From the NCBI RefSeq assembly GCF_009931435.1, contig NZ_CP043414.1: a stretch of DNA of 64,000 nt. One strand, written 5' to 3'. Position 1 is the stretch's first letter; every line of letters starts with the position of its first letter. The position numbers and the translations under genes were made by a program. A model generated the notes under the pieces. That model saw nothing but the letters and a program-made list of their open reading frames with translations. It did no database searches and had not been told where the DNA came from. The stretch comes from Escherichia coli (GTDB taxonomy: Bacteria > Pseudomonadota > Gammaproteobacteria > Enterobacterales > Enterobacteriaceae). This document shows positions 5,191 through 6,164 of the stretch, piece after piece.

Positions 5191-6164
5191 ATGAGACTCA
5201 AAAAACGTTATCTCTGCACAGCATTATCACTTGCCTTTACCCAGCAGGCCGTAGCGGCTCAGGAGAGTGACACGCTGACCGTATGGTCCAGTCCGGTATC
5301 ATCGACGACGACCACCGTTCTCGATCAACCCACCATGAAGGCCCTGGATAAACAGAATGTCGCTCAGGCATTAAGTGTCGTCCCCGGCGTGGTACTGCAA
5401 AAGTCAGGTAGCCGCAACGAAGAACAGGTCAAAGTTCGTGGCTTTGATAGTCGTCAGGTGCCGGTCTATTTCGACGGTGTGCCCATTTATGTTCCCTATG
5501 ACGGCAACCTCGATCTGGCGCGGATTCTGACCAACAATTTGGGGGCAGTTGAAGTTTCCAAAGGGTATTCGTCGCTGCTTCAGGGGCCTAATCAGATGGG
5601 CGGAGCCATTAATATCACCACCCAGAAGCCAACAAAACCTCTGGAAGCAAGTCTGGGATATCGCCAGGGATGGAGCCGTAGCCAGGACAATGCCTACGAT
5701 ATGCATGCTTCTGGCACAATATCGATGCCGATACCATTCAAAATCAGAACAGCGGCACGGTGGATTACAGCGGTCTGGATGCCGGTATTAAGGGGAAAAT
5801 CAGCAATATACTGGATGTAGGATTGAGCTACGCCCTGATCCACGCTGATACCAAACGTAAAGACATCGGCAAGATAACCGATCTGCCAACGCAGACAATG
5901 ACCGCATGGATGACTCTCAAACCGTGGGAGCCGTTAAGCGTAACGCTGTCGGAAGAGGCGCGTTCCTCCAGCTACAGCAACAGTGACGGTTCACAAAAAG
6001 CCGCCGGTTTTGCGGTGACCCACATTCGAGCCGATTACACCTTAGGTCATGGCTTCAGCGTTAATGCGTCGGTCAATAACCTGTTTGATACCAAATATGC
6101 CTACAGTGAAGGGTTTATTGAAGAAGGTCGCAATTTCTGGGCAGGTGTCGAATATACGTTCTGA
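5191..6164 (+). pseudogene. TonB-dependent outer-membrane receptor remnant (signal peptide and plug region fused out-of-frame to the last ~130 aa of the barrel)
   Basis: ORF 5170..5820 has signal peptide, TonB-box-like DTLTVW and plug-like sequence; ORF 5760..6164 in another frame ends with the typical C-terminal ...NNLFDTKYAYSEG...WAGVEYTF; combined length ~350 aa versus the usual 600-750 aa. Confidence 0.7.

What the first reader, a model, noticed from the sequence alone, without database searches (positions are those of the whole stretch)
5191..6164. TonB-dependent receptor reduced to plug plus C-terminal barrel strands by an internal out-of-frame deletion
The first ORF encodes signal peptide, TonB box and plug. 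The second, in another frame, encodes only the last ~130 residues including the canonical C-terminal aromatic residue. About 300-350 residues of barrel are missing. This records an inactivating deletion in the receptor while the downstream-irrelevant ABC genes remain intact, which is relevant to phage or colicin receptor loss.
Basis: seen in the sequence. Interest (0 to 1): 0.4.

Follow-up and report, generated by a model that had tools for sequence, protein, structure and literature searches.

The report
Deleted outer-membrane receptor gene remnant
This is an ordinary broken gene: a 997-base internal deletion has destroyed the outer-membrane receptor (prrA) of a known accessory E. coli uptake operon in one rare lineage, and relatives show the rest of the operon decaying afterwards.

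Summary
Window 5191-6164 is the remnant of a 1971-bp (656-aa) TonB-dependent receptor gene. This gene is the prrA ortholog (ECs_1693) of the published prrA-modD-yc73-fepC cluster, which lies between treA and ymgE.

Exactly 997 bp (332 codons plus 1 nt, residues 175-506) are missing. It has only a 2-bp TC microhomology, with no direct repeat and no IS scar.

ORF1 (209 aa) keeps the signal peptide, TonB box and plug, followed by 35 out-of-frame codons. ORF2 (134 aa) is a mechanical ORF with no signal peptide. The five upstream operon genes are intact.

Of 2149 complete E. coli genomes carrying the gene, 2140 retain the missing segment. The junction occurs only in a rare lineage (12 of 5426 genomes). 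Nine of those genomes also carry a second, 4667-bp deletion that removes most of the operon. The window's exact allele is absent from that set but occurs in 134-220 blocks of public assemblies, so it is real and inherited.

No evidence links the loss to phages or colicins. Verdict: an ordinary lineage-specific pseudogene with stepwise operon decay. Interest is low.

The parts
735..1757 (+). Periplasmic substrate-binding protein gene (Peripla_BP_2; ortholog of ECs_1699), intact, first gene of the operon
   Evidence: 340 aa, no internal stop, 1 aa difference from L001. Annotated in orthologs. Pfam assignment.
1757..2737 (+). FecCD-family ABC permease gene (ortholog of ECs_1698), intact
   Evidence: 326 aa, no internal stop.
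2734..3492 (+). ABC ATPase gene (the published 'fepC'; ortholog of ECs_1697), intact
   Evidence: 252 aa, identical to the L001 protein. PF00005 E=1.7e-30.
3502..4314 (+). Class I SAM-dependent methyltransferase gene (the published 'yc73'; ortholog of ECs_1696), intact
   Evidence: 270 aa. Methyltransferase Pfam hits.
4311..5165 (+). modD (nicotinate-nucleotide pyrophosphorylase-like ModD protein; ortholog of ECs_1694), intact
   Evidence: TIGR01334 modD E=3.8e-150, 498.9 bits against a cutoff of 178.85.
5191..5711 (+). 5' arm of the receptor pseudogene (prrA ortholog): codons 1-174, covering the signal peptide, TonB box (DTLTVWS), plug and start of the first barrel strand
   Evidence: Collinear with reference nt 1-521. 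Plug PF07715 E=5.3e-22.
5710..5713 (+). Deletion junction: 2-bp TC microhomology (5710-5711), with a private C-to-G substitution at 5713. 997 bp (reference nt 522-1518) are missing here.
   Evidence: Every single-deletion carrier has the G. The nine doubly deleted genomes have the unmodified C.
5713..5820 (+). Out-of-frame tail of ORF1: 35 nonsense codons and the stop codon
   Evidence: Translation. 209 aa = 174 native + 35 frameshifted residues.
5712..6164 (+). 3' arm of the receptor pseudogene: codons 507-656 of the ancestral frame (last barrel strands, C-terminal Phe)
   Evidence: Collinear with reference nt 1519-1971. PF00593 positions 326-436 of 436.
5760..6164 (+). Mechanical ORF2 (GTG start, 134 aa = ancestral residues 523-656). 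It has no signal peptide and no Shine-Dalgarno sequence, so it is most likely not a gene.
   Evidence: Upstream sequence CAGAACAGCGGCACGGTG.
6214..6468 (-). ymgE, a convergent core gene marking the right border of the island. The receptor is the last gene of its operon, so the deletion has no polar effect.
   Evidence: Annotation of orthologs.

Best explanation
Window 5191-6164 is a pseudogene of prrA. prrA is the TonB-dependent outer-membrane receptor and the last gene of the accessory prrA-modD-yc73-fepC uptake operon (O-island 55 in O157:H7), which sits between treA and ymgE.

A single illegitimate, microhomology-type deletion of 997 bp removed residues 175-506 and shifted the frame.

- Shown: the first product keeps the signal peptide, TonB box and plug, then has 35 nonsense residues. 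The remaining C-terminal 150 codons lie in another frame.
- Inferred: the C-terminal part has no export signal, so no barrel can be assembled and the outer-membrane step of this uptake pathway is abolished. The deletion removes roughly 15 of the 22 barrel strands.
- Shown: the periplasmic binding protein, ABC permease, ATPase, methyltransferase and ModD genes are left intact but without their receptor.
- Shown: the allele is inherited within one rare E. coli lineage. In relatives the orphaned operon decays further, through a second 4667-bp deletion in nine genomes and a nonsense mutation in the methyltransferase in another carrier.
- Inferred: the order of events, and a single origin of the junction.
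- Unknown: why the loss became fixed. Neutral loss of a dispensable accessory function is the default.
For: Breakpoints and frame.

Intact 1971-bp orthologs in identical synteny.

Domain content of the two ORFs.

Upstream genes intact.

Real and inherited: the exact 209-aa product is in 134 blocks and the 134-aa ORF in 220 blocks of independent assemblies, including complete chromosomes and gut metagenomes, always in the same arrangement.

The intact state is the norm: 2140 of 2149 gene-carrying complete genomes keep the segment, 1800 of them at >=99% identity.

The same junction plus a second deletion (window 873-5539) is found in nine genomes.

Those nine genomes, two with an intact operon and one lacking the island are the window's 12 nearest relatives. 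They are 98.4-99.2% identical over core genes, with a step down to 97.8% for all others.

Further decay: poly-C length variation and 1-bp indels in the doubly deleted remnant, and Q50* in the methyltransferase of carrier L032.

Link to the published name.
Against: The sequences flanking the shared junction do not agree between the two allele groups. The window's arms are almost identical to a full-length allele (L001, 2-3 differences). The doubly deleted genomes differ at about 11 sites, including 5638 and 5723, close to the junction. A simple single-origin history with clock-like divergence therefore does not fit, and recombination has to be invoked.

The five upstream genes show no decay in the window. 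This could mean the deletion is recent, or that those genes still have a use.

Loss of function itself has not been tested experimentally.
Confidence: 0.92

Rival explanations
1. The loss was selected. The receptor was the entry point for a phage, colicin or similar toxin, and the deletion spread because it conferred resistance. This is compatible with the pseudogene diagnosis and concerns only why the deletion became fixed.
For: TonB-dependent receptors in general are used by colicins and phages (established knowledge of FepA, CirA, FhuA and BtuB). Several independent lesions of this gene exist in public assemblies: a 512-bp deletion, 1-bp and 2-bp frameshifts, and an IS1 insertion.
Against: No publication found links this receptor to any phage, colicin or ligand. 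Among complete genomes carrying the gene, 99.6% keep the segment, so loss is rare. The apparent cluster of lesions is an ascertainment artefact of searching with the 134-aa ORF. The subsequent loss of the whole operon is what neutral decay predicts and needs no receptor-specific selection.
Confidence: 0.1
2. The same 997-bp deletion arose twice independently, once on the window-type haplotype and once on the haplotype of the nine doubly deleted genomes, because the site is a mutational hotspot.
For: Arm haplotypes differ on both sides of an identical junction, as close as 73 bp to the left and 10 bp to the right. The doubly deleted haplotype is found in no full-length gene (best match 96.5%). 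Differences are 7 synonymous to 6 nonsynonymous, more synonymous than random decay predicts. The right breakpoint lies in a CTCTC tract that also shows an independent 2-bp CT loss in other assemblies.
Against: Microhomology is only 2 bp, and no repeat or strong inverted repeat joins the two ends. All junction carriers in the complete-genome set belong to one lineage of 12 out of 5426 genomes. None of the roughly 2130 other carriers, whose gene is nearly identical, has the deletion. A hotspot should strike mostly outside that lineage. Short recombination patches do occur at this locus, for example window 4349-5304.
Confidence: 0.1
3. The two ORFs are a working split receptor, or a natural two-gene arrangement.
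For: Both ORFs are called as genes by automatic pipelines, and the arrangement recurs in many assemblies. Isolated plug and barrel halves of FhuA can reassemble in vivo (recalled from the literature, not checked here).
Against: ORF2 retains only about 134-150 of about 490 barrel residues. It has no signal peptide and no ribosome-binding site. The two parts are exactly collinear with one 1971-bp gene minus 997 bp. Carriers are confined to one lineage, and relatives delete the plug part as well.
Confidence: 0.02
4. Assembly or sequencing artefact.
For: None specific. Collapsed assemblies can create deletions.
Against: The identical junction is present in many independent isolates, complete chromosomes and metagenomes from different projects.
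Confidence: 0.01

Closest known systems
[quoted passage not shown] 1998, as cited in PMC1890555; chromosomal copy = O-island 55 / S-loop 83, ECs_1693-ECs_1699, in O157:H7 Sakai)
   Same: Same position (treA to ymgE), same gene order, and 97-99% nucleotide identity. The window's remnant is the ortholog of ECs_1693.
   Different: The published clusters have a full-length 1971-bp receptor gene. Here 997 bp are missing and the frame is broken. The function of the cluster is only 'proposed iron uptake'. I found no Fur box and no riboswitch.
Doubly deleted alleles in nine RefSeq E. coli genomes (for example Z0117EC0005, E200086, 24A16CRGN010, AST85), annotated by PGAP as partial pseudogenes
   Same: Identical 997-bp junction and the same lineage.
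   Different: They also lack window 873-5539 (the substrate-binding gene through the plug). They have C, not G, at the position of window 5713, and differ at about 11 further sites plus small indels.
Other lineage-specific losses at this locus: O157:H7 lineage II strains lacking ECs1691-ECs1705 (PMC1890555), and genomes without the island such as K-12 (ycgY state)
   Same: They show that the cluster is dispensable and variably present. About 60% of complete E. coli genomes lack it.
   Different: Those are whole-region absences or deletions. Here only the receptor is broken and the rest of the operon is still intact.
TonB-dependent receptors with solved structures (nearest by sequence: heme/hemoglobin receptor 9dhe)
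   Same: Plug domain and C-terminal barrel motifs can be aligned.
   Different: The relationship is very distant (E=8e-6, plug region only), and every NCBIfam subfamily score is far below its cutoff. The ligand of the intact receptor cannot be inferred.

Membership tests
TonB-dependent outer-membrane receptor (functional member) | N-terminal plug domain (Pfam PF07715) | tested here: met
   E=5.3e-22, 78.8 bits against a cutoff of 23.9, residues 39-139 of ORF1.
TonB-dependent outer-membrane receptor (functional member) | Sec signal peptide and TonB box ahead of the plug | tested here: inconclusive
   By inspection only: MRLKKRYLCTALSLAFTQQAVA|AQESDTLTVWSS. DTLTVWS resembles the DTxxVxA-type TonB boxes of BtuB, FhuA and FepA (recalled). 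No predictor was run.
TonB-dependent outer-membrane receptor (functional member) | Complete 22-strand beta-barrel contiguous with the plug in one polypeptide | tested here: not met
   Residues 175-506 are deleted and the frame is shifted. Only positions 326-436 of 436 of PF00593 remain, in a separate frame.
TonB-dependent outer-membrane receptor (functional member) | C-terminal aromatic residue (outer-membrane assembly signal) | tested here: met
   The remnant ends ...WAGVEYTF*, but it is not joined to an exported polypeptide.
prrA-modD-yc73-fepC cluster (O-island 55) | Orthology and synteny with ECs_1693-ECs_1699 between ymgE and treA | tested here: met
   Gene order and lengths match Sakai and other genomes. 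Nucleotide identity is 97-99%.
prrA-modD-yc73-fepC cluster (O-island 55) | Iron uptake function or iron regulation | tested here: inconclusive
   The literature only proposes this. No match to the Fur-box consensus within 3 mismatches in the whole window. No Rfam element in the leader. Function cannot be tested with these tools.
Pseudogene formed by deletion | Collinear with an intact ortholog except for a defined lesion that breaks the frame | tested here: met
   Loss of 997 bp = 3x332+1, with the junction at 5710-5713.
Pseudogene formed by deletion | Intact form predominates in the species, and the lesion is lineage-restricted and inherited | tested here: met
   2140 of 2149 carriers keep the segment. 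The junction occurs only in a lineage of 12 out of 5426 genomes. The allele is in 134-220 assembly blocks.

The most novel reading that the evidence does not exclude
The 209-aa product may still be made and exported. It has a signal peptide, TonB box, complete plug and a 35-residue tail, and it is invariant in all carriers seen, downstream of an intact operon. It could act in the periplasm as a free TonB-box or plug protein, for example by competing for TonB and so modulating other TonB-dependent uptake or sensitivity to colicins and phages. On this reading the deletion created a new function rather than only destroying one.
Probability: 0.04. Interest if true: 0.5.

Novelty: already known. 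Interest (0 to 1): 0.15.

Why it matters
It matters little beyond correct annotation. The two ORFs should be annotated as one pseudogene of the prrA receptor, not as two genes.

Three minor points of interest:
- The lineage preserves consecutive stages of operon decay: intact operon, then receptor deleted, then most of the operon deleted or a further nonsense mutation. That is indirect genetic evidence that the ABC transporter, methyltransferase and ModD depend on this receptor.
- The cluster's published "iron uptake" label has no support from a Fur box or any other regulatory signal found here, so its substrate remains open.
- An identical junction flanked by different haplotypes shows how recombination can replace the sequence around a deletion while the deletion itself persists.

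Tried and rejected
- **Direct or inverted repeats at the breakpoints:** nothing with about 997-bp spacing, only weak inverted repeats 60-85 bp outside the breakpoints.
- **Fur box:** the 19-bp consensus with up to 3 mismatches gave 0 hits in the window.
- **Leader of the operon:** the Rfam scan of 1-7000 gave only one chance-level hit elsewhere. The leader fold is no better than shuffled sequence (z=-0.9). Promoter and terminator scans were at chance level.
- **Junction in other species:** the junction pattern in one genome per species gave 0 hits. In JGI metagenomes it gave 1 contig, of the window type.
- **Ancestral-junction variant:** an exact look-up of a single-deletion product with the ancestral junction base (G175R) found nothing on record.
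- **Literature:** searches on PrrA function, phage or colicin use returned only unrelated 'PrrA/ModD' proteins. The original 1998 paper is not held.
- **Apparent lesion hotspot at reference nt 1504-1567:** rejected as ascertainment bias, because the query ORF starts at nt 1567 and only lesions just upstream of it produce that ORF.
- **Ungapped mapping of the doubly deleted alleles:** it went out of register because of small indels and was replaced by the gapped alignment. Only its full-length columns were used.
- **Mutation shower at the deletion junctions:** I considered this as the source of the clustered substitutions in the doubly deleted alleles. It is weakened by their synonymous bias.
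- **Structure prediction:** not run. Mapping the lost strands would not change the verdict.

Full report
**1. The observation**

The mechanical ORF list shows ORF1 at 5170/5191-5820 and ORF2 at 5760-6164, in different frames. ORF1 matches the Pfam Plug domain (PF07715, E=5.3e-22, residues 39-139). ORF2 matches only the last quarter of the TonB-dependent barrel model (PF00593 positions 326-436 of 436, E=8.3e-7, just above the curated cutoff) and ends in ...VEYTF.

By inspection, ORF1 begins with a typical Sec signal peptide and a TonB-box-like DTLTVWS. No predictor was run for this.

**2. What it is**

The neighbourhood is an E. coli chromosome: treA, a six-gene island, ymgE, ycgR, emtA, ldcA, cvrA. 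In complete E. coli genomes the position between modD and ymgE holds a single 1971-bp (656-aa) gene annotated as a TonB-dependent receptor.

In O157:H7 Sakai this gene is ECs_1693. It is followed by modD (ECs_1694), a methyltransferase (ECs_1696), an ABC ATPase (ECs_1697), a permease (ECs_1698) and a substrate-binding protein (ECs_1699). Zhang et al. 2007 (PMC1890555) describe these genes as homologs of the prrA-modD-yc73-fepC cluster of uropathogenic E. coli CFT073, "proposed to be involved in iron uptake", citing Guyer et al. 1998. A 2026 paper still lists the cluster as "possibly mediating iron uptake".

I found no functional study and no link to any phage or colicin.

**3. The lesion**

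Ungapped comparison with the intact gene of strain 2020CK-00188 (L001) gives these arms:
- **Left arm:** window 5191-5711 equals reference nt 1-521.
- **Right arm:** window 5712-6164 equals reference nt 1519-1971.
- **Net loss:** 997 bp = 3x332+1.

The ends share only TC (window 5710-5711). No direct repeat with about 997-bp spacing exists, only weak inverted repeats lie outside the breakpoints, and there is no IS scar. So this is a microhomology-type illegitimate deletion.

Codons 1-174 are kept, residues 175-506 are lost, and 35 out-of-frame codons follow before a stop at 5818-5820. The ancestral codons 507-656 survive in another frame. ORF2 is the part of them after an internal GTG. It has no Shine-Dalgarno sequence and no signal peptide.

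My estimate that roughly 15 of the 22 barrel strands are gone is an inference from general receptor architecture, not a computed structure.

The receptor is the last gene of the operon and faces the convergent ymgE, so the deletion has no polar effect. The five upstream genes align to the intact reference without a single gap, have no internal stops, and differ at 0-3 residues each.

**4. Real, inherited and rare**

The exact 209-aa product is on record in 134 blocks of public assemblies, and the exact 134-aa ORF in 220 blocks. These include complete chromosomes (for example OZ038830.1) and human-gut metagenomes, always in the same arrangement. A JGI/ENA metagenome contig also carries it. This excludes an assembly artefact.

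Among 5426 complete RefSeq E. coli genomes:
- 2149 carry the gene.
- 2140 of those retain the 997-bp segment, 1800 at >=99% identity.
- None has the window's configuration.
- Nine have a continuous match across the junction.

**5. Stepwise decay in one lineage**

The nine junction-bearing genomes also lack window 873-5539. They keep only 138 bp of the substrate-binding gene, 172 bp of the plug and the 3' arm. Their remnant has decayed further, with a variable poly-C tract and 1-bp indels.

Over 24 kb of neighbouring backbone, and over 7.5 kb of core genes (dadX-dsbB), the window's 12 nearest relatives are these nine genomes plus three others, at 98.4-99.2% identity. All other genomes fall to 97.8% or below. 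The three others are two genomes with an intact operon (2020CK-00188, RMDEC465) and one without the island (R32_14_1F, ycgY state).

This rare lineage therefore holds every stage: intact operon, receptor deleted (the window), receptor plus most of the operon deleted, and island absent. One single-deletion carrier (L032) has also acquired a nonsense mutation (Q50*) in the methyltransferase.

The most economical reading is that loss of the receptor orphaned the rest of the operon, which is now being lost. That order of events is an inference.

**6. An unresolved detail**

The junction is the same in both allele groups, but the flanking sequences differ.
- **Single-deletion carriers:** all have G at 5713 and an invariant remnant that is nearly identical to the full-length L001 allele.
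- **Doubly deleted genomes:** they have the unmodified C and differ at about 11 sites, as close as 73 bp to the left and 10 bp to the right of the junction. Seven of the differences are synonymous and six nonsynonymous. Their haplotype occurs in no full-length gene.

This could mean two independent deletions at one site. I consider that unlikely (about 0.1), for three reasons:
- The microhomology is only 2 bp.
- None of the roughly 2130 carriers outside the lineage has the deletion, although their gene is nearly identical.
- Recombination patches are demonstrable at this locus. The window has one at 4349-5304. The deleted segment is also 100% identical between this lineage and distant genomes, whereas the backbone differs by about 2%.

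A single old deletion whose arms were later replaced by recombination with full-length alleles fits better. The 997-bp heterology would act as a natural end point for such exchanges. This has not been shown.

**7.

Selection by a phage or colicin cannot be excluded, and nothing supports it. Other lesions of the gene do exist in public data: a 512-bp deletion, 1-bp and 2-bp frameshifts, and an IS1 insertion. Their apparent clustering is produced by the way I found them, and in complete genomes the gene is overwhelmingly intact.

The substrate of the intact system is also unknown:
- All NCBIfam receptor subfamily scores are far below their cutoffs.
- The nearest solved structure is a distant heme receptor.
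- There is no Fur box.
- There is no riboswitch.

**8. Verdict**

This is an ordinary lineage-specific pseudogene of a known accessory receptor gene, and it should be annotated as one pseudogene rather than two ORFs. Its only modest value is as a snapshot of stepwise operon decay. Interest 0.15.

Noticed in passing
window 29178-33940 (- strand): A very large AIDA-repeat autotransporter gene is split into two overlapping ORFs (743 aa and 845 aa). The closest RefSeq genome annotates its ortholog as 'frameshifted'. This is a second pseudogene in the window.
   Followed up: partly
window 11548-12960 (+), between cvrA and dadX: A 470-aa leucine-rich-repeat protein resembles the LRR part of the type III effectors SlrP and SspH2 (E=9e-25, far below the family cutoffs, with no ligase domain matched). 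It lies in a small insertion seen in the window's lineage. In the RefSeq relatives, cvrA next to the insertion is annotated as lacking its C-terminus, whereas the window has a 578-aa cvrA ORF.
   Followed up: partly
window 4349-5304: Thirteen substitutions separate the window (and identical contigs L007 and L027) from all other single-deletion carriers and from the lineage's intact alleles. Where comparison was possible, they match a mainstream allele (L002). This is a short recombination patch spanning modD and the 5' end of the receptor gene.
   Followed up: partly
window 686-711: A hairpin with an 11-bp stem and a T-run lies directly before the first gene of the operon, at the end of a 330-bp AT-rich leader. 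It has no Rfam match, and the leader folds no better than shuffled sequence.
   Followed up: yes
L013, L015, L016, L018, L020, L021 (orthologous receptor gene): Independent lesions of the same gene occur in other public assemblies: a 512-bp deletion (reference nt 1041-1552), a 2-bp CT loss at 1516-1517, a 1-bp loss at 1504, and an IS1 end abutting nt 1557. The 2-bp and the 1-bp lesions each occur on two different haplotypes. Their clustering is an ascertainment effect.
   Followed up: partly
L010 and L033 (E. coli O157:H7): In O157:H7 the operon's methyltransferase carries an internal stop (645-bp CDS in Sakai against 813 bp elsewhere), and ycgR is truncated by an IS629/IS3 element. The receptor gene is intact.
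   Followed up: no
L001 6613-7609 compared with 5426 genomes: The 997-bp segment is 100% identical between this divergent lineage and many unrelated E. coli genomes, although the core genes differ by about 2%. This suggests the island is exchanged between lineages by recombination.
   Followed up: partly
whole window: No sequence lies within 3 mismatches of the 19-bp Fur-box consensus. The published 'iron uptake' label of the prrA cluster therefore has no regulatory support here.
   Followed up: partly
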